Assembly: GCA_963790475.1 (NCBI GenBank)
Contig: CAWBOS010000015.1
Coordinates: 32,001-96,000 of the forward strand
Length of the DNA: 64,000 bases
From: an uncultured delta proteobacterium
GTDB lineage: Bacteria > Desulfobacterota > RBG-13-43-22
Reading direction: 5' to 3'
The position numbers were made by a program, and so were the translations under genes. Shown in pieces: positions 177 through 19,505 of the stretch. The stretch's first letter is position 1. Each line of letters begins with the position of its first letter. Under the pieces are notes generated by a model. It ran no database searches. It was not told the DNA's origin and saw nothing but the letters and a program-made list of their open reading frames with translations.

Positions 177-530
177 GTGTCTTATATGTTAATTAAGCCA
201 AATTCCTTTTTCCGTTTTCGGCTGTTGTCCTTCGTCCTGCTTTTGATCTTCGTAATCTCCTGTGGATCAAAAGACAAGGTCGCCGGGGTCTACAAGGCAG
301 AGGGAAAAGACTCGCCTAAACAGGTCGAAACCCTGGTCGAGCTCAAACCCAATGGGGACGGGGCCTGGAAGATAGGCGACGAAGAAGTCCCCTTCTCCTG
401 GTATATCAAGGGCGGTGAGCTTAGAATCAACACCAAAGGGGGCGGGGTCATCGTCGGCAGCATTGAAGGGGATACCATTCAGATGACCATCCCGGGCACC
501 AAGAAAATGGCCTTTAAGAAAATCCAGTAA
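177..530 (+). CDS. small hypothetical lipoprotein
   Basis: Basic N-region, hydrophobic stretch and lipobox-like VISC; beta-rich mature part. Confidence 0.65.
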   Translation: MSYMLIKPNSFFRFRLLSFVLLLIFVISCGSKDKVAGVYKAEGKDSPKQVETLVELKPNGDGAWKIGDEEVPFSWYIKGGELRINTKGGGVIVGSIEGDTIQMTIPGTKKMAFKKIQ

Positions 531-870
531 TTACTCCGGGCTTATCGGATTCACCGCATTTTTTTACTGATGACCTGGAGGGCCGCATCCAAAGAGAGGG
601 GAGCGAGTGCGGATCACTGATCAACCCATCGATGTCGATGACCCGGCACCACCTTTTCTCGAAACGTTTTGGTAGAAACCTGAAAGGCAACCTAAACTCA
701 CAGGATGAAATCAAGATAAAAGTACTGATGGCGGAGCATGTGAAATTAACAATGAGTGAGGCTTCGCCTATTTCTGATAAAGGGGAAAAGAAACCAAGAA
801 TTTCTCTCTGATACAAAATCCATTATAGGGGTGGCCGCCAAACCCTGTCATTAGGGGGGGGACATCTACC

Positions 871-3800
871 ATGAACTGTCCGAAATGCAGGAGCGAGAAT
901 TCTGAAGGGACAAAGTTCTGCCGCGAATGCGGCGCCCGGTTGGAAAGGGTTTGTCCCCAGTGCCACGCCGCCAGTCCTCCCCACTTCAAATTCTGCCGAG
1001 AGTGCGGGCATCCCTTGTCCGCATCTTCGGAACCACCTATCCCAAAATCCCTTTCGGAAAAACAGCCGACCCCCTCCCCTCCCCCCCAAGAGCTAACCGA
1101 GAAAATCTTGGCCCAGAGGGGGCGGATCGAGGGCGAGCGCCGTCAGGTGACGGTGATGTTCTGCGATCTGGTGGGTTCTACCGCCCAGACCGAAAAGCTG
1201 GGAGACGAGAAAGCCTTTGCCCTCATCGATGAGCTCTTCGGCATCCTGACACAGCAGGTCCACAGATATGAGGGGACGGTCCAGGAGTTTCGGGGAGATG
1301 GCATTATGGCCCTTTTCGGGGCCCCCCTTGCTCTGGAAAACACTGCCCAGCGGGCCGTTAGCACCTCTCTGGCCATCCACCAGGAGGTAAACCGGTTCAA
1401 CAACCGGTCCCTTGAGGGATCCCGAAGCCCGGCCATCCGCATGCGGATCGGAATCCATACCGGTCCGGTCATTCTGGGCAGCATCGGCAGCGATCTGCGT
1501 CTGGAGTTCCAGGTCATCGGTGATACGGTAAACCTGGCCGCCCGGATGGAAGCGCTTGCAGAACCGGGAACCACCTATCTGACTAAAGAGACCTACCGAC
1601 TGGCTAAGGGCCTGTTTCATTTCCAGCCCGTGGGGGAAAAAGTAGTTAAAGGTAAGGAAAACCCGATTTCCGTCTACAAGGTTCTTTCCGCCAAAGAAGA
1701 CGTGTACCGCCCTCGTTTGGGTTCTGAGCGGCAGATTTACTCCCGGATAGTCGGAAGGGACAGCGAGCTGAATAAGCTCGAGCTTCAGGTGATGAAAGCG
1801 GTCAACGATCAGGGATCAGTCGTTAATATTATCGGCGAAGCTGGTATTGGAAAATCGCGGCTCCTGGCAGAGTTGAAAAATCGGGAGGTAATGAAAAGGG
1901 TAACCCTCATGGAGGGAAGGGCGATTTCCATAGGCAAAAATCTGAGCTTTCACCCGATTACTGATCTTTTGAAACAATGGGCGGGCATCAGGAGTGACGA
2001 TGGCGAGGCCAAGACTTTTGACAAACTCCAGGCTGCCATAAAAAGGGTCTTTCGCGAAGAGTATAGTGAGGTGCTTCCTTTTGTGGCCATCCTGATGGGG
2101 ATGAAGCTGCCCGGAATCCATGCCCAGAGGGCAGAAGGGATAGAGGGCGAAGCCCTGAATAATCTGATTCTAAAAAGTGTAAGGGATCTGTTGGTCAAGG
2201 CGACGGAACTGACTCCTCTGGTGATGGTGATCGATGACTTGCATTGGGCTGACACCAGTTCCATCGAGCTCATGGAATCCCTTTTTCGCCTGGCAGAGAC
2301 ACACAAGATTCTTTTCATCAATCTTTTTCGGCCCGGCTACCAGGAAACCGGAGACCGCTTAGTTGAATCCCTCAAAGACCGCCAGGTGAACTACTATGTC
2401 GAAATAGTGCTGGAGCCCCTGCCGGAAAAAATGAGTGAAGCCCTCATCGGCAACATGTTGAACTTCAAAGAGCTTCAACATGCCTGGGTCACCGGCATCG
2501 TAGAGAGAACTGGAGGCAATCCCTTCTTTATTGAAGAAGTCGTTCGCTCCCTGATCGATGAACAAGCGCTTTTGCCGAAGGGAGGCGCATTTCATTTGAC
2601 CGATAAAGCGGCAACCATCTCTATTCCCAACACTATTGAAGAGTTACTGATGACCCGGATCGACCGGTTGGAGGAGCAGACCCGTGACCTGGTGAAGGAC
2701 GCATCGGTAATCGGAAGGTCTTTCTTCTATCGCATCCTGGCCAAGGTGGCCTCCGAAATCGAAAATATCGATGCCCGGCTCACCTATCTGCAGGAAATTC
2801 AGCTCCTCCGGGAACGATTGAGAATGGGCGAGTTAGAGTACCTCTTCAAGCATGCCCTGGCCCAGGAGGTGGCTTACGAATCCATTCTGCCCCTGAAAAG
2901 AAAGGAGCTTCATCTAGCGGTAGCCCAAGCCATAGAAAAGGTCTTTGAGGAAAGACTCCATGAATTCTACGGGATGCTCGCCTATCATTATTGCCAGGCC
3001 GAAAGTCTGGAGGAGGCCGAGGAGTGCCTGATCAAGGCTGGGGAGGAGGCCCTGAGATCAGCCGCCTCAGATGAGGCCCTGCATTATTATGAGGAAGCCC
3101 TCCAGCTCTATCTGAAAAAGTCCGGCAAAGACGCCCATCCCGAAAAGCTGGCCATGTTGGAGAAGAATATTGCCCTGGCTCTGTATAACCGGGGGCAGCA
3201 TCAAGAGGCCGTTAATCATTTTGAAAAGGCCCTGGATTATTACTGGCGGAAATTACCGAAAAGTGCGGTTTTTGTGACAGTCAAACTCTTTTCGGCGTTA
3301 AGTCACTTCTTCTTAGCCTTGTACCTGCCAACCATGAAGTTCAAGAAGACACCGTCAGAGCGGGATATCGAAATCGTCGATCTATTTTTTAAGAAGATCA
3401 ATTCGATCTCATTAACCGATGCTAAGAGATCTTTCATTGAGTATTTCCACTTGTTCAGGTTTATCAGTCTCTTCAACCTTCGTAAATTCAGAGATGGTTA
3501 TGGAATCTTCTCCATGTCCAGTGCTTTGTTTGCCTACTCCGGAATTTCATTTGCTTTGAGCAGAAAAGTCTTAGATTCCATTAGAAACAAAGTCGACAAA
3601 AACGACCCTATAAACCAGATAATGTTTGGGATTTGTGAAACAGTGTATCTTTTTTTGGGAGGGGACTGGAAAAATTTAAAGGACTATGATGGTGAACTGG
3701 TAGAACAGAATTGCAGGATTGGGGAAATTTATAATGTTTCACAATACTTGTTCTGGAATGGGCTTGGTGCGATCTGCCGAGGTTATTTCGACAAAGCCGA

Positions 3801-4551
3801 GGAGATTGCGAATAGATTGCATGATCTCTACGAAGTCTATGGGAATGTACTTTCCGAAATTTTTAGATACGAAGTCAGTACCATGCTGCTGATCGAGTCC
3901 GGTAAACTTGATGAGGCAAAAGTTGAATCCGAAAAGGGAGTTGCCTTCGGGCAAAAAACAAATTCAATTTATTGGTGGGAATTGCATTTATGCCAAGCCT
4001 ATATACACATCTCGAGGGGTACAATCGAAAAGGCACAGGAATACCTTGAGCAGGCCGACAGAATTAGGGTTCAAACAGAAACAGCCCCATTGCAATTGTC
4101 ATGGCATTATCAAATTCAATTGGAATTTGACCTTTACCACTTAAGGGAATCAACTAAGAGCGGAAATCGAACAGAAATTGATAAATTCCGAAGAGCAACC
4201 CTCAAGTCTATCAGGGCACTCGAAAAGGTTGCACGAAAAGTAGCCTATCATCGAACCGATTCATACAGGCTTACCGGAGCCTATTACTGGATGATCCATA
4301 AACACGAAAAGGCTCTCGGATGGTGGCAGAAAGGGGTTCAGGAAGGGCAGCGCCTGGGAGCGCGCCCTCAACTGGCCCGGCTGTACTTCGAGGTAGGCAA
4401 GTGCCTGATCGAGGAAAAGGGTAAATATTCAAAACTGGCTGGCCTCGAGGGAAAGGAATATCTGGAAAAGGCCAGGGCATTGTTTGAAGAAATGAAAATA
4501 GAATCCTACCTGGAAGAAATAGATCGAGTTGTCGAGATGAGGAGCCTTTGA
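871..4551 (+). CDS. double zinc ribbon + class III adenylate/guanylate cyclase + STAND-type AAA ATPase + TPR protein
   Basis: CPKC..FCRECG..CPQC..FCRECG; cyclase motifs VMFCDLVGST, FRGDGIMALFGAP, GDTVNLAARME; Walker A GEAGIGKS, Walker B VIDDLHWAD; GGNPFFIEE; YLFKHALAQEVAY; helical TPR-like C-terminus. Confidence 0.92.
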   Translation: MNCPKCRSENSEGTKFCRECGARLERVCPQCHAASPPHFKFCRECGHPLSASSEPPIPKSLSEKQPTPSPPPQELTEKILAQRGRIEGERRQVTVMFCDLVGSTAQTEKLGDEKAFALIDELFGILTQQVHRYEGTVQEFRGDGIMALFGAPLALENTAQRAVSTSLAIHQEVNRFNNRSLEGSRSPAIRMRIGIHTGPVILGSIGSDLRLEFQVIGDTVNLAARMEALAEPGTTYLTKETYRLAKGLFHFQPVGEKVVKGKENPISVYKVLSAKEDVYRPRLGSERQIYSRIVGRDSELNKLELQVMKAVNDQGSVVNIIGEAGIGKSRLLAELKNREVMKRVTLMEGRAISIGKNLSFHPITDLLKQWAGIRSDDGEAKTFDKLQAAIKRVFREEYSEVLPFVAILMGMKLPGIHAQRAEGIEGEALNNLILKSVRDLLVKATELTPLVMVIDDLHWADTSSIELMESLFRLAETHKILFINLFRPGYQETGDRLVESLKDRQVNYYVEIVLEPLPEKMSEALIGNMLNFKELQHAWVTGIVERTGGNPFFIEEVVRSLIDEQALLPKGGAFHLTDKAATISIPNTIEELLMTRIDRLEEQTRDLVKDASVIGRSFFYRILAKVASEIENIDARLTYLQEIQLLRERLRMGELEYLFKHALAQEVAYESILPLKRKELHLAVAQAIEKVFEERLHEFYGMLAYHYCQAESLEEAEECLIKAGEEALRSAASDEALHYYEEALQLYLKKSGKDAHPEKLAMLEKNIALALYNRGQHQEAVNHFEKALDYYWRKLPKSAVFVTVKLFSALSHFFLALYLPTMKFKKTPSERDIEIVDLFFKKINSISLTDAKRSFIEYFHLFRFISLFNLRKFRDGYGIFSMSSALFAYSGISFALSRKVLDSIRNKVDKNDPINQIMFGICETVYLFLGGDWKNLKDYDGELVEQNCRIGEIYNVSQYLFWNGLGAICRGYFDKAEEIANRLHDLYEVYGNVLSEIFRYEVSTMLLIESGKLDEAKVESEKGVAFGQKTNSIYWWELHLCQAYIHISRGTIEKAQEYLEQADRIRVQTETAPLQLSWHYQIQLEFDLYHLRESTKSGNRTEIDKFRRATLKSIRALEKVARKVAYHRTDSYRLTGAYYWMIHKHEKALGWWQKGVQEGQRLGARPQLARLYFEVGKCLIEEKGKYSKLAGLEGKEYLEKARALFEEMKIESYLEEIDRVVEMRSL

Positions 4552-5543
4552 TGGAACGCAGGATCGCTGATTTACGGTCATTCTGCTCCCGGGTCGATTT
4601 TGGCCCTGTAGACCTCTCCCGAGAAGAAGAAGAATTCCGTGGGGAGCTGAACCGGGAAATGCTCTCGTTCTGTCAATGCCTGCCGAAATCTATGCGAACG
4701 AAGGCAGCCCTGTTCTTGATGGAATACCTGCACGCCTCCTTTAGGGAGGGCCTTAATTTTGTCAACTACTTCTACGCCCCGGCCTGGTCGATCCTTTTTT
4801 GGCTTCATCGATCCTGTCCTAATAACAGGAAACTGACCCCAAAATATTTAAAAGATGCAAATACCGGCCATACCATGGCCATGTTCCTTCATGCCTTCGA
4901 CGACCATCTTACTGATGGTCAATTGCCTGTTTCAAACCTAGCTCTGCTAATGAGAAGCCACGCCTGGATGATCATGAACCAGGCCTTTGAAAGATTAGCC
5001 AAGGGAGTTGGGAATGGAGAATCAATTGTAATCGATTTTATCAACGATTACTATTCCAGTATCGATTCATCTGACCAAAAGGGATCCCTCGACAGCTACT
5101 GCAAGTTTTTCAGAAAACAGATGGCGACATGGTTGATTGCTCCTGTACTTATCGCAAAAAAGATCAATTCCAATGAAGAGTTTGTCCGCTCTATTGAGAC
5201 AGCCTATTCCTCTTTCGGCATTGCCTATAGGCTTCTCGATGATCTACAGGATATTGAAAAAGACATGATAAAAGGAGTCCATTCTTCCCCATATACTTGT
5301 CTTCCCGCCAAGATGAGGAAAGTTTGGAACCACGTAAAGGAAGAAAAAGCGGATGGAAATGGCGACTATGCCAGGCAGATTCTGAACTACATCCAGAAAA
5401 ATGGGATAATCGATAGAATAAGGAAAAGGATATGCGATGAGCTGGAAACAGCCACATCCAGGGCGGATTCTTGCAAGATGTCAGGCTTCGCTGATGAGCT
5501 TCGTTGTCTTTTGAGACCATTGAAGAATGGGGAGAATCACTGA
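4551..5543 (+). CDS. class I isoprenoid synthase / prenyltransferase-fold protein
   Basis: Two Asp-rich motifs: HAFDDHLTDG (FARM-like) and FGIAYRLLDDLQD (SARM, DDxxD); all-helical; ATG 4551 overlaps the cyclase stop (TGATG). Confidence 0.72.
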   Translation: MERRIADLRSFCSRVDFGPVDLSREEEEFRGELNREMLSFCQCLPKSMRTKAALFLMEYLHASFREGLNFVNYFYAPAWSILFWLHRSCPNNRKLTPKYLKDANTGHTMAMFLHAFDDHLTDGQLPVSNLALLMRSHAWMIMNQAFERLAKGVGNGESIVIDFINDYYSSIDSSDQKGSLDSYCKFFRKQMATWLIAPVLIAKKINSNEEFVRSIETAYSSFGIAYRLLDDLQDIEKDMIKGVHSSPYTCLPAKMRKVWNHVKEEKADGNGDYARQILNYIQKNGIIDRIRKRICDELETATSRADSCKMSGFADELRCLLRPLKNGENH

Positions 5544-6706
5544 TGAAAGGGACCACTTCAGATGAAATCTGTCGAGGAGTGGAGCAAGAAAAACTCTCTA
5601 TCGAAGTGACCACGCGATGCAACGGCTCCTGCCTGCATTGTTTTGCCCGCTCCAATAACTCCAGAAGCTCTACCCTCCCTGTCGATTTGGTCAAAGAGAT
5701 CATAGTCGAGGGATATGATGCCGGATACCGTCACCTCCATATTACAGGGGGTGAGCCCCTGCTTTGGGAAGGCTTGTTCGAGACCCTGGACTATGGCCTT
5801 GGTATCGGATTCGAAACAATCTTCATGAATACCAATGGAACACTCATAACGGAAGAGATCAGCAAGAGACTCGCCGACTACAGCACCTTTTTTTCGATGT
5901 CGATCAGCCTGGATGGGCCCGAAGCCTTGCATGACCGCATACGAGGAAAGGGATCGCACCAAAAAACGATGCTGGGCATTGAGAGGGCTCTCAATAGGGG
6001 AATTGATCTTACCATCTTCACAACGGTTACAAAAAGGCTATTACCCGAGTTGCCGCTATTCGTCGGTGACCTGTTCAAGCGATTTCCCAATATTGACTAT
6101 TTGATTCTCATCCAGCTTATCAAAACGACGAATGTCCCCTTTGCCCTGTCGGAAGAACTTCTTAACCCGGAAGACTTCGTGCGACTGGTGCGAATGGTTG
6201 CCCTTCTGGATGTCGGCGGTTTCCGCGCCATTGTGAAGAAGAACCCTTTGGCCAACGTGGTTTCCAAGATGCTGGAGATGCCTTGGATCCCTCGGGTCCC
6301 TCCCCTTTACCGCGAGGGATGCCTGATTGTCCTGGCCAACAGGCATGTCAGTGTGGTGCACTCCAACAGAAATAGCCTCGGCCGATACACGTCCGGTATG
6401 ATTCGAAAAGTCCTGGACTCCGATGAATATCGCAAAACCGTTGCGCCGGATAATACGACCTGTCCATGGTGCAGTTATGTCCAAATATGTGAAGAAAATG
6501 GAATGATTCGGCCCCCCCATGGGTACGGAGACATTTACGGCGATTCGCCTTTTTGCCGCCGGGTATTGGATAGTCTTGCACAGGATCAACCGATTTTCGG
6601 GGCTAACTTAGGCGGACGCGTACCCTTATCAGCTGATAAGGCGTATACCAAGAAGAGCCGGAACCGGTCACTGACTAAAACGCTAAAAGAAAGGAGGGAT
6701 ATATAA
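5543..6706 (+). CDS. radical SAM protein with partial SPASM-like C-terminus
   Basis: CNGSCLHC (CxxxCxxC), TGGEPLL, TNG, SLDG motifs; C-terminal CPWC-x5-C...C; ATG 5543 overlaps the upstream stop (TGATG). Confidence 0.88.
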   Translation: MKGTTSDEICRGVEQEKLSIEVTTRCNGSCLHCFARSNNSRSSTLPVDLVKEIIVEGYDAGYRHLHITGGEPLLWEGLFETLDYGLGIGFETIFMNTNGTLITEEISKRLADYSTFFSMSISLDGPEALHDRIRGKGSHQKTMLGIERALNRGIDLTIFTTVTKRLLPELPLFVGDLFKRFPNIDYLILIQLIKTTNVPFALSEELLNPEDFVRLVRMVALLDVGGFRAIVKKNPLANVVSKMLEMPWIPRVPPLYREGCLIVLANRHVSVVHSNRNSLGRYTSGMIRKVLDSDEYRKTVAPDNTTCPWCSYVQICEENGMIRPPHGYGDIYGDSPFCRRVLDSLAQDQPIFGANLGGRVPLSADKAYTKKSRNRSLTKTLKERRDI

Positions 6707-6865
6707 AGCCAAGAATAGAGAACAAAACTCTCAACGGTTTTGGCGAAGAGCAAGAGGGCTTTCAGATCGAAAAGAACCCGGTATGAAAAATGGCTCTACG
6801 AGGATCTTCGGCAGGAGACAACCTCATGATTTCAAACATTCAACACAAAAGATAAGGAGGAAAAG

Positions 6866-7108
6866 ATGACAACCAATAGAAAAAGAAGTGATTTCATTAA
6901 CTTCATCATGGATGCTGAAAAAAACCAAAAAATGCTAGACGAGTTTCTGAAAATAAAAGAGGCTAAAAAACTTTACAATTTCTTCAAAAGAAATAACTAC
7001 ATAGACATACCTTTCAATGATTGCCAAGATATACTGAAGGCTATGAGATCTTGGATTGGAGGGGGAGGGAGGGGACCTATCTGTCCCCCTGGAGCAAAGA
7101 TTTACTAA
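6866..7108 (+). CDS. putative RiPP precursor peptide (Nif11-like leader, GG motif, core RGPICPPGAKIY)
   Basis: 80 aa with a strong AAGGAGG RBS, located between two rSAM genes; amphipathic leader FINFIMDAEKNQKMLDEF...NNYIDI resembles Nif11-type leaders; GGGG then a Cys/Pro/Tyr tail. Confidence 0.62.
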   Translation: MTTNRKRSDFINFIMDAEKNQKMLDEFLKIKEAKKLYNFFKRNNYIDIPFNDCQDILKAMRSWIGGGGRGPICPPGAKIY

Positions 7109-7294
7109 TATGAGAACAATGTGTAACTAAGACTCTGGGGCGTGAATATCTGTTCGCTTATCCAAGCTGCCTTGAGCTCGAATTTCGATCAATTGTCTGA
7201 ATTTGGATGAGTTAAAGAGCGGGAGTGAGAAACGAAGGGCGCTATTCGTTTGCCTGGCAGTGGTTGCTTGCAATGACTCGTAGTAATGTGGTCT

Positions 7295-7323
7295 GTCGGT
7301 GGGGTTCCTCAAACCCCACCGAC
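7295..7323. terminator. 12-bp perfect hairpin between precursor and second rSAM gene (attenuator, stabiliser or REP-like)
   Basis: GTCGGTGGGGTT-CCTCA-AACCCCACCGAC. Confidence 0.55.
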
Positions 7324-7364
7324 TCACTTTGTAAATCGATTCGACCTAGAAGAAGAGGCTATTT

Positions 7365-8726
7365 GTGATTAAAATCCTCAAGTCAGATTTCAATTCTGTT
7401 GCATTCAGCACGGAATCATTGACCTTGTACCCGTTGCCGGCTCGGATTGGTGAATCTCTTATGGATAACGAGGAGTATACTTCAGAACATTTACCGGAGA
7501 CATTTAAGGATGATTACATCAATGACAATCCGGTGAAAATCAATCGGCTCCTATTATTAGTGGCACAAACCTGTAATATCAAATGCTCTTATTGTATTGC
7601 CGAAGCTTACATGGGACCATATTCTGTAGATCAAATTATGAGCCCGACTACCGCCTGTGTCGCGATTGAGAAAGTGTTCAAAAGCGCACCGGATGTTTCG
7701 GAGGTTATTTTTTTTGGAGGAGAGCCTTTGATGGGTTTTGCTACCATCAGGAAAGCGGTACAAGCCAGCGAAGAATACTGTGGGGCGCATCAAATTCGGA
7801 AGCCCTCTTTTTCTATCACCACCAATGGAACATTGATAAACCAAGAAATGATCGAATTTTTTAAGGAACATAATTTCTCGGTGACTATTAGTTTGGATGG
7901 CCCTCCGCACATTAATGATAAGCAACGCCGGTTTCCGTCAGGAAAAGGCACTTATGACTTGGTCAAGAAGAAAATTGATCTGCTTTGCAGTTCGGGCTTA
8001 GAGTTCGGAATAGAAGCCGTATTCACGGACCGCCATAGGGAATATAAAGAGACCATTGAATCGATCTACAAGTTTCTTCTTAGATTGGGTGCCCGGGAAA
8101 TTAGCCTGACCCCTCCTATAGGGGGATCACCGGACGAATGGATTAATCGGGATTTGTTGACCGATTTGGAACAAAGCTATGTTTCTTCGACCGAGAAGAT
8201 TATGGAAAGTTGGTTGAGCGACTCTCCGATTAGAATGCCTTATTGGATCGACATGTTAAAAACGCTCGTATCCCGGGAGGGCAAAACCCATTTCTGCGAT
8301 GCCGGTTACGGGGGGATTGCAGTGGACTGCACCGGGAGAGTATTTCCCTGCCACGCCGTTATGGGCAACAGCCTTTATATGGGAAGCGTCTACGACAAAG
8401 AGTTCCCCGGCGAGGACTTCAGAAGGGTAGCGCTGCGGATGCGCCAGACTTCAAAGGACAGCTTTCCCAAGTGTCGCGGATGTTGGGCCAAGAATCTGTG
8501 CTCTCCATGCTACGGTGATACTTTTGTTAAATCCGGAACTCTAAGTGCACCCCGAGAAAGTATATGTATAATAATTCGCTCGGTTGCCAAAGCTATATTG
8601 CTTAAGGTGGCGGAATTCATGTCTGATGAAGAGAAATGGAAAAGGTTCACTGAGGTTTTTAATCTTTCACAGTTTTATTTCGATATGGACCACAAAGATT
8701 TCAATACAGCCCATCATTCAAAATAG
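7365..8726 (+). CDS. radical SAM/SPASM peptide maturase (anSME/SCIFF/QhpD-like)
   Basis: VAQTCNIKCSYC, FFGGEPL, TTNGT, SLDG; full SPASM: CDAG..VDCTGRVFPCH...CRGCWAKNLCSPC...C. Confidence 0.9.
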   Translation: MIKILKSDFNSVAFSTESLTLYPLPARIGESLMDNEEYTSEHLPETFKDDYINDNPVKINRLLLLVAQTCNIKCSYCIAEAYMGPYSVDQIMSPTTACVAIEKVFKSAPDVSEVIFFGGEPLMGFATIRKAVQASEEYCGAHQIRKPSFSITTNGTLINQEMIEFFKEHNFSVTISLDGPPHINDKQRRFPSGKGTYDLVKKKIDLLCSSGLEFGIEAVFTDRHREYKETIESIYKFLLRLGAREISLTPPIGGSPDEWINRDLLTDLEQSYVSSTEKIMESWLSDSPIRMPYWIDMLKTLVSREGKTHFCDAGYGGIAVDCTGRVFPCHAVMGNSLYMGSVYDKEFPGEDFRRVALRMRQTSKDSFPKCRGCWAKNLCSPCYGDTFVKSGTLSAPRESICIIIRSVAKAILLKVAEFMSDEEKWKRFTEVFNLSQFYFDMDHKDFNTAHHSK

Positions 8727-8736
8727 GAGATCAATC

Positions 8737-10476
8737 ATGCCAAAAATAACGCACGTGCAATTGCCCGGTAGCTATCGAAGTAAAGACCCCACCGCCTTTC
8801 GGGTTGGTGATGTCAACCCCAAAGAAAAGATCATTGTCACCATCGGGCTTAAAGGCCCGAAACTCCCTGGTCCAGGAGAACACATCGGCCATACCTTTAC
8901 GCCCGATCAGATAGCCGAGAAATTCAGCGTAGAGAAGACTGATGCTGTTAAGGTAACAGAAACACTAAAGAATTATGGCCTAAAAGTTTTAGAAATCTCA
9001 CTGGTGACGCGCAGCATGCGCCTCATCGGAACGGCAGAAAACATGGAAGCCGCTTTCAAACCTGACTGGGCGGTCATGAGCTCATGTCGCCAGCCACGAT
9101 ATCGTGGTCGACAGGGAGTACTCTACATACCTGAAAAGCTTAAGGGTATTGTGACTGGGGTTTTCGGACTCGATCAGCGGCAAATGGCACATCGGAGGAC
9201 GGGTCTAAAGGGCCCGACAAATATATCGTCTGTGCTAGAAAGCCCGTTTACACCGAAAGATATCATAAGGCAATATAATTTCCCATCAGGGGATGGTTTA
9301 GGCGAAACTATTGCGATCGCGGCGTTTGCTGGCGGCTATTTCGCCGAAGACATGGATGCCTATTTCGTTAGAGTCTTCAGAAGTCAAGGGCAAAATATAC
9401 CCACCCCTGGTGTTAAAACAATTTCGGTAAATGCTCCAGCCTACACACTTCAGGAGATTCTTTCGCTCCCTATTCCGGAGCAAATAATAAACCAAATTAG
9501 CTATAGTTTCGAAGTGATGACGGACACCGAACTAATCGCAGGATTATGTCCAAAGGCGAACATTGTAGTCTACTTTTCCACATTTGACGAAGGTGGATGG
9601 ATCGGTCTCCTCGACAGGATTTTCAACGACGCAAAGCAATCCCATCGCGTCCAAAAGCCAATCCCGGTCGCGCTTTCAATCAGTTGGGGTTTGCCTGAGG
9701 ATTATTGGACAAAGAATCAAAGGGACCAAATCAACGATCAATTAAATAGATTAAGCCTGCTGGGTATCACCACCTGTGTCGCCTCAGGGGACGACGGTTC
9801 GAGAGGTTACATCCAGGATGGCCAAGCCCATGTCGATTTTCCAAGCTCTAGTCCCTTCGTGTTGAGTGTTGGCGGAACCATGCTGAAGGCTAATATTAGA
9901 AATAATCCGATAATCGGTAATCCGATAATCCGTGTCCAGGAGGTTGTTTGGTGGGAAACATGGACCGATCCACTCCGCATCTCCTATGTATCTACGACGG
10001 GGGGCGGAGTTAGTACGAAAAATCTACGCCCGAATTGGCAGGATGGTCCGCTGGTTACCCCACTCAGGCAACAACCCCTCAATCCGCTAGCCTTTGACGG
10101 TCGTGTGGTGCCCGATGTTGCTGCTCTGGCCGGAAAACCATATTATGACTTGATTTTCCTTGGGTTACCGGTGAAGACCGGGGCGACAAGTGCCTCGGCA
10201 CCCGTCTGGGCCGCCCTCATCGCACGAATCAATGCCAAACTCCCACAAAATAGGCAAGGGCGATTTCTGACTCCTCTGCTCTACCAGAAACTGCCACCGC
10301 CAGACGGCCGGGTTGTTGGTCAGGTCTCGTGCCGGGATATTACCCAAGGTGATAATACACCTGACTACCCCCCTCCTAATGGCTACAAGGCGGGGATAGG
10401 GTTCGATAAGGTTACAGGGTGGGGAGTCCCGGATGGGATGAAACTTCTCGATTGTTTGAATCAGGTTATACCTTAG
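8737..10476 (+). CDS. S53 family peptidase (sedolisin/kumamolisin-like) with prodomain
   Basis: Start MPKITHVQ after AGGAGA RBS; catalytic EVMTD (ExxxD), ASGDDG, VPDVAALA, ATSASAP, Ca-site GFDKVTGWG. Confidence 0.9.
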   Translation: MPKITHVQLPGSYRSKDPTAFRVGDVNPKEKIIVTIGLKGPKLPGPGEHIGHTFTPDQIAEKFSVEKTDAVKVTETLKNYGLKVLEISLVTRSMRLIGTAENMEAAFKPDWAVMSSCRQPRYRGRQGVLYIPEKLKGIVTGVFGLDQRQMAHRRTGLKGPTNISSVLESPFTPKDIIRQYNFPSGDGLGETIAIAAFAGGYFAEDMDAYFVRVFRSQGQNIPTPGVKTISVNAPAYTLQEILSLPIPEQIINQISYSFEVMTDTELIAGLCPKANIVVYFSTFDEGGWIGLLDRIFNDAKQSHRVQKPIPVALSISWGLPEDYWTKNQRDQINDQLNRLSLLGITTCVASGDDGSRGYIQDGQAHVDFPSSSPFVLSVGGTMLKANIRNNPIIGNPIIRVQEVVWWETWTDPLRISYVSTTGGGVSTKNLRPNWQDGPLVTPLRQQPLNPLAFDGRVVPDVAALAGKPYYDLIFLGLPVKTGATSASAPVWAALIARINAKLPQNRQGRFLTPLLYQKLPPPDGRVVGQVSCRDITQGDNTPDYPPPNGYKAGIGFDKVTGWGVPDGMKLLDCLNQVIP

Positions 10477-10623
10477 TCAGCACTCCATGACTTGTATCTA
10501 AGAGCGTTCCCGAAAAGTAAATCCTGCTTTTAACTTTATTTTAATAAAAGGATTTTGGCCAGGCAAGGGCGCTGACCACCAACACGGCTTGACCGGAAGA
10601 GATATGCTTAGTCATAAGGATTT

Positions 10624-11826
10624 GTGATGCCTTCGCGAGGATTAAAAACGACAGCCGGTTTATTGAATTGCCCGATCATGATTGTTGGGGCGGGACCTGC
10701 CGGGATTTCCACCTGGCTGCATCTTCAAAAGGAGGCCCCGCAATTGGCCCGCTTTTCCCTTGTCATCGAAAAGGCCATTTTCCCACGAGACAAATTGTGT
10801 GGGGGCGGTTTATGCTCTTGGGTTGCCGATGCGCTGGCCTACCTGGGGGTGGACCTTGATATACCATCCTTGTCTGTTTCTGATCTGGAGTTCAGATTTG
10901 GGAAAGAGATCGATCTTATTCACCAGGATAATTATTTCCAAGTCGTCCAGCGTGTTGATTTTGATCAGGCCCTGGCAAGAGCCGCGGTTAAGCGAGGCCT
11001 TGACCTGCATGAAGACGAAATACTTGTCGATATTCTTCGGACCCGGAACAAGCTGGTTGTAACAACCAATAAAGGGAAATATGCCGTGCAAGCCCTCGTT
11101 GGTGCGGACGGAGCTTTCAGCTTAGTTCGCAAGAAGATGATCTCATCCCGGAAACATCATCTTGCGCGTACACTTCAGGTATTCGCTCCCGCTGACTCCC
11201 GATATGATCACGAATTCACGGAAAAAAAGACGGTTGTCGATCTCACGCCCATCAAAAAGGGTTTGCAGGGCTACGTTTGGCACGTGCCTTGTCTGAAGGA
11301 TAAGACCCCTTCCATCGCCCATGGCATAGTTGATTTCCGGGTTTGGCCTGATAGACCAAAGGCAGACATGAAGAAGATATTCGGCCAAGAATTGGAAAGC
11401 AGAAATATTCATCAGGACCCTAAGGCCTGGTCCAGTCACCCCATTCCTTGGTATTCGGAGGAGGACATCCTGTCACAGCCCAATGTGATCCTGGTAGGAG
11501 ACGCCGCAGGAGTTGAGCCGGCCTTTGGAGGAGGTATCCACCTCTCACTGGCCTACGGGGAGGTTGCCGCTAAAGCTATTATCGATGCCTTCCAAGCCGA
11601 TGACTTATCTTTCCAGGATTACACCCAAAGGATACAGTCCCATCAAGTTGGGCAGCATATATCCAAATGCACCCGTATAGCCCGGGCAATGTATGGTGGC
11701 AAGATGAATCCTTTGGATGGGGCACGGGAGGTTTTTGCTCCCGAATATGATTCCTCCGCTATGATGCGTGAATTGCTGTCCAGGTACTTGGAACTCCATC
11801 CCCAATCGTCTTCAGACCCTAAATGA
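10624..11826 (+). CDS. geranylgeranyl reductase-family FAD-dependent oxidoreductase
   Basis: VGAGPAG, EKAIFPRDKLCGGGL, VGADG, LVGDAAG..P..GGGI motifs. Confidence 0.82.
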   Translation: MMPSRGLKTTAGLLNCPIMIVGAGPAGISTWLHLQKEAPQLARFSLVIEKAIFPRDKLCGGGLCSWVADALAYLGVDLDIPSLSVSDLEFRFGKEIDLIHQDNYFQVVQRVDFDQALARAAVKRGLDLHEDEILVDILRTRNKLVVTTNKGKYAVQALVGADGAFSLVRKKMISSRKHHLARTLQVFAPADSRYDHEFTEKKTVVDLTPIKKGLQGYVWHVPCLKDKTPSIAHGIVDFRVWPDRPKADMKKIFGQELESRNIHQDPKAWSSHPIPWYSEEDILSQPNVILVGDAAGVEPAFGGGIHLSLAYGEVAAKAIIDAFQADDLSFQDYTQRIQSHQVGQHISKCTRIARAMYGGKMNPLDGAREVFAPEYDSSAMMRELLSRYLELHPQSSSDPK

Positions 11827-11972
11827 TTCTGTAACGGAATCGGTGAACCTATACAGATCACCCGAGGTCAGAAAATACGCCGCCAGTTATCAAACAATTA
11901 CTTCTTTCCAACCAATACCCGGAAACTAAAGAAAAAGTATTTGATCCCGGTTACATTTTTCACCGCCAATTA

Positions 11973-12753
11973 TCAGGGCCACCTTCTGGTTAAATCAAGA
12001 TAGTAGCTCGTGGTCTCAGTTGACTGGTCCTTATACTTAATCGTTATCTCGATCGTGAATTGTCCCCTTCCTGATGATTCCAGGGCGAATTGGTCGTCAG
12101 GATTTGACCGCACCTGCAAGGGATTGGGAAACGTCGGACGTAATAGATACTGGACTTCGGCTATTTGATTGAGGACTTGAAAAGGTTCATCCACAAAAAC
12201 ACGCCAGTTGTAATAGTTCCTGCCCTGAATTGCAGATATGCTTCTGGCATAATTGTTGATCCTGACCTTGATTTTCCTTTCAGCCGCGAAGGCGCTTCTT
12301 GTCAGGCTCAGGGTAAGCAGAGATTTCGCGGCCTGGTTTTGAGGGAGGACGGTGGCAATCAATGATTGTCGTTGATAATTGGGATAAAAGGGAAGCACCT
12401 TCCACAGATTTCCATTCTTATCCGTCAGGGTCATCCGGAAAGCTTTGGTCATGCCATTAAAAGGAATTTTAGCCGTCCACCAGCCGATGATCTGTCCGGC
12501 CGTCAGTTCAACTGGTCCGGACCGCGTCTCGGATTTCCCTGAGCTTGATTGCTCATTATATTCATAAGTACCCCTTTGGAGTTCGAAGGTCTCCACTTTC
12601 ACATTTGCAGGTGGTTCGAGATTGACAAAAATGTCCAGTGGTAACGATGGTGATTGGGTTTTGGCCCATATGATCACCACGCCAACAACAGCGGCGGCAA
12701 ATCCCCCCCACCGCCCAATTACGAAATTTCTTGTCCGTTTTTATGACGCCGAC
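11973..12753 (-). pseudogene. membrane-anchored protein with C-terminal prokaryotic YEATS (pYEATS) domain; 5'-truncated, +1 indel in a G7 run
   Basis: C-terminus YNWRVFVD..IAEVQYLLRPTFPNP..FALESSGRGQFTIEITI is the YEATS signature; removing one G near 12705 gives VGVIKTDKKFRNWAVGGFAAAVVGVVIIWAK (TM helix); no own start codon. Confidence 0.7.
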
Positions 12754-18969: not shown

Positions 18970-19505
18970 TAGGGGGCCCCGTCCAATCCGGCCCGTTCCT
19001 TTTCCATAAACCAGCCTTCCGGATCAGTCAGATAATAGCGGGTATCTTTGAGGGCCTTCCAGTGCTCTTTTTCTTCCAGGATCATCTGATCCAAAAAAGC
19101 AGCCTCCAGGGGATCGGCTGTCCTGGCTCGGTGTTCCTGGTAAAATTTCAGACTGGCTGATTCAAAATCCAATCCGATATCCACAGCCTCCAAATCCGTC
19201 GTTTCGGGTTTGATTCTTTCCCTCTCCCGGGCTGCCAGATTCCGAAACAGCAATCCCAAATCTTCGGAAAAACCCTTGATGGATTCCCAATCCCTGGTCC
19301 AGCATTTTCCGGAGGTCAGGGTATCATGGATTTGTTTAATCCGGTCCTGATGAAGGACCTCGTCCTTCATCAGGGCGGAAAAAATCTCCTTACACTGGGG
19401 GTTCCGGCAGGTGGTTACCGACTGTTCATAAAAGGCCTTTCCTTTATCTTCCATTTCCAGGGCCGTGGCCAGCATGTCTATTGAACATTGAATTGGATCG
19501 GTCAT
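18969..19505 (-). CDS. ferritin-like / rubrerythrin-domain protein
   Basis: ALEMEDKGKAFY...DEVLH...FESASLKFY...EEKEH diiron pattern. Confidence 0.82.
   Translation of the reverse strand: MTDPIQCSIDMLATALEMEDKGKAFYEQSVTTCRNPQCKEIFSALMKDEVLHQDRIKQIHDTLTSGKCWTRDWESIKGFSEDLGLLFRNLAARERERIKPETTDLEAVDIGLDFESASLKFYQEHRARTADPLEAAFLDQMILEEKEHWKALKDTRYYLTDPEGWFMEKERAGLDGAP

What the first reader, a model, noticed from the sequence alone, without database searches (positions are those of the whole stretch)
6866..7323. Nif11-like precursor with unusual core RGPICPPGAKIY and downstream hairpin
Seen: AT-rich 80-aa ORF with a perfect RBS; helical leader, then SWIGGGG, then a 12-aa tail with Cys73, three Pro and C-terminal Ile-Tyr; a second Cys (C53) lies in the leader; a 12-bp perfect hairpin (7295-7323) precedes the maturase gene. 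Known: Nif11 leaders end in GG; precursor-maturase hairpins often raise precursor mRNA levels; SCIFF/QhpD-type enzymes form Cys thioethers, and MftC acts on a C-terminal Val-Tyr. Inference: either a thioether macrocycle or terminal-Tyr chemistry is possible. The core matches no motif I recognise.
Basis: partly seen in the sequence, partly recalled or inferred. Interest (0 to 1): 0.7.

Follow-up and report, generated by a model that had tools for sequence, protein, structure and literature searches.

The report
Tyrosine-ended peptide precursor, likely prenylated
This small gene encodes one member of a bacterial peptide family whose only fixed tail residue is a final tyrosine, and the prenyl-synthase-fold enzyme encoded beside it likely attaches an isoprenoid lipid to that tyrosine, a reaction so far reported for this enzyme fold only on tryptophan.

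Summary
The ORF, ribosome site and 12-bp hairpin are real. The leader is only remotely Nif11-like (no hit here; 8 of 149 relatives hit weakly). GGGG is not a family feature (GG near the end in 6 of 37 locus precursors). The one invariant tail residue is the C-terminal Tyr: 37 of 37 locus precursors, 142 of 150 profile hits, 2% background. IS keeps both Asp motifs, lacks the chain-elongation motifs, and is predicted to bind the leader (0.69, best control 0.00). Best reading, by analogy to PalQ/PalX (C-terminal Trp): IS prenylates Tyr80 and rSAM1 acts on the same residue. The downstream CteB/PapB-like rSAM2 is optional: all 10 loci with it have a core Cys, but 5 Cys cores lack it, so a Cys73 thioether is a likely accessory. 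No chemistry was shown. The scan noted this system before, on another genome (e1-6638258) and from the IS gene of this one (e1-9598780). Verdict: new variant of a known kind.

The parts
871..4551 (+). Zn-ribbon + adenylate/guanylate cyclase + AAA_16 (STAND-type) ATPase + TPR protein, 1226 aa; candidate intracellular sensor
   Evidence: Pfam; directly upstream of IS (or of the relocated precursor, L029) in 41 of 43 loci with >=300 nt in view; its C-terminal region has no paralogue in the genome although the ATPase part has about ten
4551..5543 (+). IS: class I isoprenoid-synthase (trans-prenyltransferase) fold protein; candidate Tyr prenyltransferase and leader-binding enzyme (ORF called from TTG 4548; ATG 4551 overlaps the cyclase stop)
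   Evidence: fold; best Z 22.6, rmsd 3.0, 286 aligned; motifs; complex
5543..6706 (+). rSAM1: radical SAM enzyme, no N-terminal leader-binding extension, four invariant C-terminal Cys (CX2CX5C...C); ATG overlaps the IS stop
   Evidence: follows IS in 43 of 43 loci with >=400 nt in view
6853..6860 (+). ribosome binding site of the precursor
   Evidence: sequence; conserved in 14 aligned loci
6866..7051 (+). precursor leader, residues 1-62: four helices, conserved F10, F13, I14, L/M23, F27, F39, F40, I48, D52, C53, I56; remote Nif11 relative
   Evidence: weak Nif11 hits in relatives; predicted interface with IS
7052..7108 (+). variable tail, residues 63-80, with Cys73 (position -8) and the invariant C-terminal Tyr80, then the stop
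   Evidence: covered without differences by a contig of run X1, which may be the source sample
7295..7323 (+). 12-bp hairpin, part of the 5' region of rSAM2; no T run, no covariation
7365..8726 (+). rSAM2: radical SAM/SPASM enzyme nearest to thioether-forming CteB/PapB/nif11-class maturases; optional in the family
8737..10476 (+). S53/S8 (kumamolisin-like) peptidase with pro-domain; candidate leader peptidase (ORF called from TTG 8584; ATG 8737 has the ribosome site)
   Evidence: the slot is filled by S8, C11 or C25 peptidases in other loci
10624..11826 (+). geranylgeranyl-reductase-family flavoprotein (121 bits, below the 158.8 cut-off); optional tailoring enzyme

Best explanation
The ORF is the precursor of a conserved peptide-modification cluster in which only the C-terminal tyrosine of the tail is invariant, and the upstream isoprenoid-synthase-fold enzyme, predicted to grip the helical leader, likely prenylates that tyrosine. 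Shown: the family, the invariant Tyr, the gene order, the fold and motifs of IS. Predicted: leader-IS binding. Inferred, step by step: (1) IS binds the leader and transfers an allylic prenyl group (C5-C20, made by the genome's own polyprenyl synthases) to Tyr80, on O or on the ring; (2) rSAM1, translationally coupled to IS and lacking its own leader-binding domain, then works on the same residue or its prenyl group while IS holds the peptide; oxidative decarboxylation is the leading guess, and the order of steps is unknown; (3) in this locus rSAM2 adds a thioether from Cys73, most simply to the terminal residue, since no Asp/Glu/Asn/Thr follows the Cys; (4) the S53 peptidase cuts somewhere in the variable linker, not at a fixed GG; (5) the flavoprotein may reduce the prenyl chain; (6) the product is read by the TPR part of the STAND cyclase, which makes a cyclic nucleotide. 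Own odds: RiPP with Tyr as target 0.85; IS prenylates it 0.6; rSAM2 thioether at Cys73 0.55; decarboxylation by rSAM1 0.3; cyclase senses the product 0.4.
For: Tyr ends 37 of 37 precursors in loci (36 distinct tails), including 12 of 12 in a distant family fetched by IS alone after the prediction was noted. It ends 142 of the best 150 profile hits, and 103 of the 111 whose best-scoring stretch stopped short of the terminal column; background 60 of 2714 long frames. rSAM1 follows IS in 43 of 43 and the cyclase precedes it in 41 of 43 scorable loci, with TGATG overlaps here. In 401 phylum genomes IS occurs in 9 and the wide precursor profile in 5, all beside IS; two more IS genomes hold a diverged Tyr-ended precursor. 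IS has the trans-prenyltransferase fold with D118, D119, D123, D231, D232, D235, D239 invariant in 62 of 62, but lacks the GKR and RRG motifs that the genome's two full-length housekeeping synthases keep; these motifs serve chain elongation (own knowledge). Complex prediction IS + precursor: 0.69, best of 3 controls 0.00; runs share at least 47% of contacts, partner pLDDT at least 72; mark reached by 116 of 157 solved and 2 of 215 mismatched pairs, counts only rough with own alignments; contacts use leader residues 9-18, 24-28, 47-63. PalQ/PalX is a close precedent: same superfamily, helical leader plus conserved C-terminal aromatic residue, sensor gene alongside (PMC10853753, results read). 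IS has invariant Arg228 where PalQ has the Trp-recognising Gln197. GG-reductase-like genes lie in 10 loci counting the window and a CrtI-like gene in one.
Against: No activity, product or expression was observed. The complex model names no confident contact for the tail, so Tyr80 in the active site is not shown. IS has no sequence match to any solved structure and its nearest folds are chain-elongating synthases, not peptide prenyltransferases (Ord1 at Foldseek ranks 23 and 27). Canonical synthases also have Gln at the Arg228 position, so the change does not by itself point to Tyr. The flavoproteins score below their curated cut-offs and were seen in 0 of the 12 loci of family f57. Loci were mostly fetched by IS, so co-occurrence is conditional on IS. 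L094 shows no precursor in the 369 nt after rSAM1, and 8 of 150 hits do not end in Tyr.
Confidence: 0.58

Rival explanations
1. rSAM1 is the true Tyr-modifying enzyme (MftC-like oxidative decarboxylation to a p-hydroxystyrylamide, or another radical step), and IS serves mainly as the leader-binding scaffold, in place of an RRE, or uses a diphosphate donor other than a prenyl group.
For: rSAM1 is as fixed as IS (43 of 43); its best family hits are AhbD/AhbC/NirJ and MftC types and its best solved hit is a decarboxylase, BlsE; MftC decarboxylates a C-terminal Tyr (PMC10288494, passage); rSAM1 has only about 20 residues before the radical SAM motif and no PqqD-like gene was seen among the scanned ORFs; the predicted IS interface is on N-terminal helices 36-69, away from the Asp motifs.
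Against: Seven Asp of both metal-binding motifs are invariant in IS, which a pure scaffold would not need. rSAM1 scores 70 bits against the 265 cut-off of MftC and keeps only four C-terminal Cys; Val-Tyr is not conserved. Full-length similarity to MftC has mispredicted function before (StsB; PMC10288494). This rival is compatible with the best explanation as a second step.
Confidence: 0.15
2. The peptide is a disposable scaffold, as in mycofactocin: the product is a small prenylated, methylated tyrosine or tyramine derivative (a membrane phenol, cofactor or signal) cut off the end, and the variable tail does not matter.
For: Only Tyr is conserved; tail length and sequence vary freely. Optional genes are a B12-type radical SAM methylase-like protein in 18 loci, GG-reductase/CrtI-like flavoproteins and unrelated peptidases. 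No exporter or C39 peptidase among the 9 window ORFs scanned.
Against: A Cys at -5 to -10 in 61 of 142 Tyr-ended hits, peaking at -7/-8 and followed by Pro, and its tie to rSAM2 suggest that several tail residues stay in the product. The peptidases found are endopeptidase families, not ones that release a terminal residue (own knowledge). No dehydrogenases of the mycofactocin kind were seen in the loci viewed.
Confidence: 0.12
3. The defining chemistry is a Cys thioether macrocycle made by rSAM2 (a ranthipeptide/sactipeptide).
For: rSAM2 has a full SPASM domain; best hits rSAM_nif11, PapB, QhpD-type, SCIFF and solved CteB. All 10 loci with an open rSAM2 frame have a Cys at -6 to -9; L023 and L027 lack the Cys and keep only rSAM2 remnants. 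PapB can join Cys to C-terminal Gly or D-residues, D-Tyr at C-beta (PMC12373016, abstract and passages).
Against: rSAM2 is absent or a remnant in 22 of 32 scorable loci; 5 of these have the Cys (L012, L089, L090, L095, L100), and the four f57 genomes behind them hold no close rSAM2 elsewhere (best 27-33% identity). On the IS tree of 21 loci only 1-2 well-supported independent pairs exist, too few for a test. No conserved acidic acceptor (D/E between Cys and Tyr in 23 of 61). PapB's C-terminal activity was shown on engineered substrates. It fits as an accessory step only.
Confidence: 0.08
4. The ORF is a small regulatory or chaperone subunit of IS/rSAM1 that is not itself modified; the terminal Tyr is a docking residue for the TPR domain.
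For: Most conserved positions lie in the folded helical part; TPR domains commonly bind C-terminal peptides (own knowledge); no exporter seen.
Against: Remote Nif11 leader homology, leader-plus-hypervariable-tail layout, a Cys that tracks a thioether-type enzyme, and swapped peptidases are all RiPP hallmarks.
Confidence: 0.05

Closest known systems
PalQ / PalX / PalP of Paenibacillus alvei (PMC10853753; abstract and whole results section read)
   Same: Isoprenoid-synthase-superfamily enzyme beside a precursor with a helical leader and a conserved C-terminal aromatic residue; predicted enzyme-precursor complex; a sensor gene in the cluster.
   Different: Tyr instead of Trp; Arg instead of Gln three residues before the second Asp motif; Nif11-like instead of NHLP leader; one to three radical SAM enzymes; cytoplasmic STAND-TPR cyclase instead of a histidine kinase; no direct sequence comparison with PalQ was run.
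ComQ/ComX and the ChrPC P domain (PMC13290415, section 2.4 read)
   Same: trans-IDS-like peptide prenyltransferases; for ComX a variable peptide with a cognate receptor (recalled).
   Different: They modify an internal Trp; no coupled radical SAM pair is described in the section read.
Mycofactocin MftA/MftC (PMC10288494, passages)
   Same: Radical SAM enzyme with a precursor that ends in Tyr.
   Different: No Val-Tyr, no conserved core, rSAM1 at 70 of 265 bits with only four conserved C-terminal Cys, no RRE partner seen, and an obligate IS.
Ranthipeptide maturases CteB, PapB and TIGR04064 nif11-class rSAM (PMC12373016 abstract and passages)
   Same: rSAM2 is a SPASM enzyme of this neighbourhood and goes with a core Cys.
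   Different: Below every curated cut-off; one Cys only; no CX3D/E acceptor; Cys-to-Tyr spacing varies from 5 to 8; optional.
Cyanobactin/lanthipeptide ABBA prenyltransferases PagF, PirF, MppC (PMC12715784 abstract and first part; PMC13290415 passages)
   Same: Tyr prenylation of RiPPs is known (PirF); MppC needs a Nif11-like leader to prenylate.
   Different: ABBA fold, not the all-helical trans-IDS fold; no radical SAM pair, no cyclase.
TOMM kinase/cyclase (TIGR03903) and putative peptide-modification cyclase (TIGR04510)
   Same: Cyclase-ATPase-TPR proteins tied to RiPP clusters; 311 and 18 bits here.
   Different: Below cut-offs (706, 400); no kinase domain; a different RiPP chemistry.

Membership tests
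Nif11-leader RiPP precursors (PF07862, TIGR03798) | Match to the leader model at the curated cut-off | tested here: not met
   No PF07862 hit at E<=1 and no TIGR03798 hit at E<=0.1 for this protein
Nif11-leader RiPP precursors (PF07862, TIGR03798) | Remote homology of the family to the leader model | tested here: met
   8 of 149 relatives hit PF07862 at E<0.01, 1 over the cut-off (P0263, 24.2 vs 23.8); 3 of 4 picked relatives hit TIGR03798, all under 32.3 bits; 1 of 21 close members at E 0.24
Nif11-leader RiPP precursors (PF07862, TIGR03798) | Double-glycine cleavage site before the core | tested here: not met
   GG in the last 30 residues of 6 of 37 locus precursors and 29 of 142 Tyr-ended hits; the nearest homologue (66%) lacks it
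Nif11-leader RiPP precursors (PF07862, TIGR03798) | C39 peptidase/ABC exporter in the cluster (recalled as typical) | tested here: not met
   None among the 9 window ORFs scanned (177-12680) or the 15 locus neighbours scanned; S8/S53, C11 and C25 peptidases instead
trans-IDS-like peptide prenyltransferases (ComQ, PalQ, ChrPC-P) | Class I isoprenoid synthase fold | tested here: met
   Model pLDDT 86; best Z 22.6, rmsd 3.0, 286 aligned
trans-IDS-like peptide prenyltransferases (ComQ, PalQ, ChrPC-P) | First and second Asp-rich motifs | tested here: met
   DDHLxD and DDxQD invariant in 62 of 62
trans-IDS-like peptide prenyltransferases (ComQ, PalQ, ChrPC-P) | Gln just before the second motif, tied to indole recognition | tested here: not met
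   Arg228 in 62 of 62 at the position of PalQ Q197, by motif spacing
trans-IDS-like peptide prenyltransferases (ComQ, PalQ, ChrPC-P) | Conserved Trp acceptor in the precursor | tested here: not met
   Trp in the last 25 residues of 22 of 142; W63 not conserved; Tyr is
trans-IDS-like peptide prenyltransferases (ComQ, PalQ, ChrPC-P) | Binds a leader-bearing precursor | tested here: inconclusive
   Prediction supports it (0.69 vs 0.00) but does not show it; may reflect likeness to solved complexes
trans-IDS-like peptide prenyltransferases (ComQ, PalQ, ChrPC-P) | Prenyl transfer to the peptide | not testable with these tools
   Needs an assay
canonical polyprenyl diphosphate synthases (PF00348) | PF00348 cut-off and GKR/RRG motifs | tested here: not met
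   14.6 vs 27 bits; motifs absent in IS, present in the genome's two full-length housekeeping enzymes
ranthipeptides (PapB, CteB, TIGR04064) | Radical SAM plus SPASM maturase next to the precursor | tested here: met
   rSAM2:
ranthipeptides (PapB, CteB, TIGR04064) | Maturase reaches a curated family cut-off | tested here: not met
   198.5/518.7, 187.6/340, 152.6/425 bits
ranthipeptides (PapB, CteB, TIGR04064) | Cys donor with a conserved downstream acceptor (CX3D/E or similar) | tested here: not met
   Cys73 present, no D/E/N/T after it; D/E between Cys and Tyr in 23 of 61
ranthipeptides (PapB, CteB, TIGR04064) | N-terminal RRE on the maturase | not tested
   About 55 residues precede the catalytic domain; not modelled
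mycofactocin (MftA/MftB/MftC) | MftC family cut-off | tested here: not met
   rSAM1 70.4 vs 265 bits
mycofactocin (MftA/MftB/MftC) | C-terminal Val-Tyr | tested here: not met
   Position -2 is G 37, A 17, Y 17, S 16, K 12 of 142; Ile here
mycofactocin (MftA/MftB/MftC) | Oxidative decarboxylation of the terminal Tyr | not testable with these tools
   Needs an assay
intrinsic terminator / Rfam RNA | G+C stem followed by a U run, or an Rfam match | tested here: not met
   No terminator call; no Rfam hit at E<=1 in 6600-7500

The most novel reading that the evidence does not exclude
A RiPP class in which a trans-IDS-fold enzyme prenylates a C-terminal tyrosine, one radical SAM enzyme remodels that residue and a second closes a Cys-to-terminal-Tyr thioether ring of variable size, and the lipidated product stays in the cell to switch on its own STAND-TPR nucleotide cyclase: a self-contained modified-peptide to second-messenger circuit with strain-specific tails.
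Probability: 0.2. Interest if true: 0.85.

Novelty: new variant of a known kind. Interest (0 to 1): 0.62.

Why it matters
A 2026 review says every characterised trans-IDS-like peptide prenyltransferase acts on tryptophan (PMC13290415). A family of 333 close IS homologues paired with at least 250 precursor clusters that fix only a terminal Tyr would give a Tyr-directed, tail-tolerant, leader-guided lipidation enzyme, of use for peptide engineering. It would also offer a natural case of Cys-to-C-terminus radical thioether closure, so far seen by me only for engineered PapB substrates (PMC12373016), and a defined ligand candidate for one of the many orphan cyclase-STAND-TPR proteins of these bacteria (about ten paralogues in this genome). 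The test is cheap: two or three genes in E. coli and a mass spectrum. The idea is not unique to this window: the scan reached it before.

Tried and rejected
GG cleavage site and a conserved RGPICPPGAKIY core: rejected. W63 as a ComX-like prenylation site, my first idea: rejected, not conserved. Hairpin as a REP-like repeat: rejected, single copy. Hairpin as a structured RNA under selection: no support, 0 of 12 pairs show a change on both sides in 10 loci, no Rfam hit; conserved sequence alone fits an RNA stem or an operator. A hidden small ORF behind the second ribosome-site-like motif: no frame open across 14 loci. A strict two-way Cys/rSAM2 tie (10/1/0/10 in the first 21 loci) weakened to 10/5/0/17 after the f57 loci were added. 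Fold search with the precursor model: no Z of 5 or more; uninformative. Sequence searches of solved structures with IS: nothing significant. rSAM2 as bait in genome contigs: nothing; in 401 phylum genomes at E<=1e-60 only G000 and G017. The protein Atlas gave no answer. Sequencing runs: no RNA holder listed, so nothing on expression or a coverage step; two DNA runs were laid. One weak precursor-profile hit without IS (G129, E 6e-4, inside a 391-aa frame) was not examined and vanished with the wider profile. L030 and L031 were dropped as copies of L012. Only one complex job was available, so rSAM1 and rSAM2 with the peptide were not modelled. Literature searches that found no description of this cluster: (open-licence PMC and bioRxiv only; most subscription papers and all supplements unseen, including the PalQ and review similarity networks, which could contain this family; the ChrPC paper itself was not seen).

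Full report
Observation. The 80-aa ORF at 6866-7108, its ribosome site, its low G+C (35.8% against 48.7%) and the perfect 12-bp hairpin at 7295-7323 are as described. The protein has no Pfam Nif11 or TIGR03798 match. A model shows four helices over residues 9-65 and an unstructured tail. It is single-copy in the genome.

Neighbourhood. On the same strand lie a Zn-ribbon/cyclase/AAA_16/TPR protein (871-4551), a 330-aa protein with weak terpenoid-synthase hits (IS, 4551-5543), a radical SAM enzyme (rSAM1, 5543-6706), the precursor, a radical SAM/SPASM enzyme (rSAM2, 7365-8726), an S53/S8 peptidase and a geranylgeranyl-reductase-family flavoprotein. The first three overlap by TGATG. I fetched related loci, mostly with IS as bait. 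Of the 53 distinct loci tallied, rSAM1 follows IS in 43 of the 43 with at least 400 nt in view, and the cyclase lies upstream in 41 of the 43 with at least 300 nt; the exceptions are L036 (contig ends after the precursor) and L095 (a TPR-CHAT protein instead). Two loci (L061, L102) hold only IS fragments followed by unrelated genes, and L094 shows no precursor in the 369 nt after rSAM1. In 401 phylum genomes IS was found in 9 and the wide precursor profile in 5, each beside IS; two more IS genomes carry diverged precursors, one contig ends, one cluster is decayed. The cluster is patchy; the two named records are a Desulfobacterales MAG and the Olavius Delta 4 symbiont.

What the precursor conserves. 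In 21 close members the invariant columns are M1, F13, F27, F39 and Y80. A profile of them finds 250 representatives at 50% identity; 142 of the best 150 end in Tyr. This is not an echo of the profile: 103 of the 111 hits whose best stretch stops before the terminal column still end in Tyr, against 60 of 2714 long frames in the genome. Of the 8 others, three have a Tyr 4-5 residues from the end. All 37 precursors read from loci end in Tyr (36 distinct tails), including 12 of 12 in family f57, fetched by IS alone after I had noted the prediction. GG occurs in the last 30 residues of only 6 of 37 and 29 of 142; even the 66%-identical homologue lacks it. W63 is not conserved; C53 belongs to the leader (97 of 133). 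A Cys at -5 to -10 occurs in 61 of 142, mostly at -7/-8 and followed by Pro. Eight of 149 relatives hit Nif11 at E<0.01, one above the cut-off, so the leader is a remote Nif11 relative.

IS. The model (pLDDT 86) matches trans-prenyltransferases (Foldseek; best Z 22.6, rmsd 3.0, 286 aligned). Both Asp-rich motifs are invariant in 62 of 62 homologues; the GKR and RRG motifs kept by the genome's two full-length housekeeping synthases are missing; Arg228 is invariant where those enzymes and PalQ have Gln. A complex prediction of IS with the precursor scored 0.69 against 0.00 for the best of three controls (runs share at least 47% of contacts, partner pLDDT at least 72; the mark was reached by 116 of 157 solved and 2 of 215 mismatched pairs, only roughly valid with my alignments). 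Confident contacts join IS residues 36-69 to conserved leader residues; none is named for the tail. This supports binding and does not show it, nor where Tyr80 goes. PalQ of Paenibacillus alvei, in the same superfamily, prenylates the conserved C-terminal Trp of a leader-bearing precursor, needs it terminal, and sits with a sensor kinase (PMC10853753, results read). A 2026 review states that all characterised enzymes of this type act on Trp (PMC13290415 section 2.4). Tyr prenylation by IS is therefore an inference by analogy.

rSAM1. It keeps CX3CX2C and only four invariant C-terminal Cys (CX2CX5C...C), with His-Ser where rSAM2 has the Pro-Cys of its first auxiliary cluster, and has no N-terminal extension. 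Best family hits are AhbD, AhbC, NirJ and MftC, all far below cut-off; the best solved hit is the decarboxylase BlsE at E 1e-8. As the Tyr is the only residue common to all substrates, rSAM1 most likely acts on it or on its prenyl group. MftC-like decarboxylation (PMC10288494, passages) is the leading guess at about 0.3; Val-Tyr is not conserved.

rSAM2 and the Cys. rSAM2 is nearest to rSAM_nif11, PapB and CteB, below every cut-off. Of 32 scorable loci, 10 have an open rSAM2 frame (four run to a contig end) and all 10 have a Cys at -6 to -9; 17 lack both; 5 have the Cys without rSAM2; none has rSAM2 without the Cys; five loci were left out because the contig ends or the context is unclear. L023 and L027 lack the Cys and keep only remnants of rSAM2. 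The four f57 genomes with Cys but no rSAM2 hold no close copy elsewhere. On the IS tree of the first 21 scorable loci only 1-2 supported independent pairs exist, so the tie is not statistically established. No acidic acceptor is conserved (23 of 61). PapB can link Cys to a C-terminal Gly or D-residue, D-Tyr at C-beta, in engineered substrates (PMC12373016, abstract and passages). A Cys73 thioether, perhaps to Tyr80, is a likely accessory here.

Other slots. Peptidases vary: S53 (window, L009, L039), S8 (L010, L023, L058), C11 (L034, L035), C25 (L060), which fits the lack of a fixed cleavage motif. A third, B12-methylase-like radical SAM gene is in 18 loci but not in this genome. GG-reductase-like genes are in 10 loci with the window and a CrtI-like one in L058, all below cut-off, none in the 12 f57 loci. 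The cyclase's C-terminal part has no paralogue in the genome while its ATPase part has about ten; that it senses the product is inferred from position only.

Hairpin. It is conserved in sequence in 10 aligned loci, without covariation, and sits about 40 nt before rSAM2: in 8 of 10 rSAM2 loci (not L029, L039), in both remnant loci and in L019; it was not found in the rSAM2-less loci then in hand. It travels with rSAM2, not with the precursor (5 nt after the stop in L020, 186 nt here). A partial stop or stabiliser is possible and untested; no RNA holder was listed.

Verdict. It works most like PalQ/PalX with Tyr in place of Trp and radical SAM tailoring added; it fails the membership tests for canonical Nif11-GG precursors, for the Trp prenyltransferases, for ranthipeptides and for mycofactocin. 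Nine searches of the open literature found no description; closed papers and supplements were not seen. I stated my reading before the look-ups; earlier notes of this scan reached the same one on another genome and on this IS gene, which is no independent support. New variant of a known kind; interest 0.62.

Noticed in passing
window 6686-6700: A second ribosome-site-like motif (AAAGAAAGGAGG) 168 nt before the precursor start holds most of the invariant columns of the rSAM1-precursor spacer in 14 loci, yet no reading frame behind it is open across loci. Possibly an RNA-binding-protein site or a relic.
   Followed up: partly
window 871-1700; L009, L011, L013, L039, L047: The cyclase domain differs far more between loci (29-90% identity) than the TPR stretch next to the ATPase (60-89%), and the base-specifying position varies (Glu here; Lys, Glu, Asp or Arg elsewhere), as if effector domains are swapped.
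   Followed up: partly
L095:8293-11640 (-): A TPR-CHAT (caspase-like) protein stands in the cyclase's place upstream of IS, while a distant cyclase-ATPase lies downstream on the other strand.
   Followed up: partly
L029:253-495 and L036:63-302: The precursor gene has moved to just upstream of IS in two loci.
   Followed up: no
window 6600-6706: rSAM1 here runs about 25-40 residues longer than in relatives, reading through what is spacer in other loci.
   Followed up: no
L013:10571-12670: A 699-aa protein with no Pfam or NCBIfam hit sits in the peptidase slot between rSAM2 and the third radical SAM gene.
   Followed up: partly
L012:10475-11130: A broken transposase-like stretch (recalled likeness, not searched) lies where rSAM2 would be, and the flavoprotein gene is split, in the Olavius symbiont locus.
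   Followed up: no
P0211: A 166-aa hit with two matched leader stretches, ending in Tyr: possibly a tandem precursor or two fused genes.
   Followed up: no
window 11973-12680 (-): A prokaryotic YEATS-domain protein lies convergent with the end of the cluster; not seen as part of it.
   Followed up: no
window about 19345-19375: The only other perfect hairpin of 12 bp or more in the window, inside a ferritin-like ORF.
   Followed up: no
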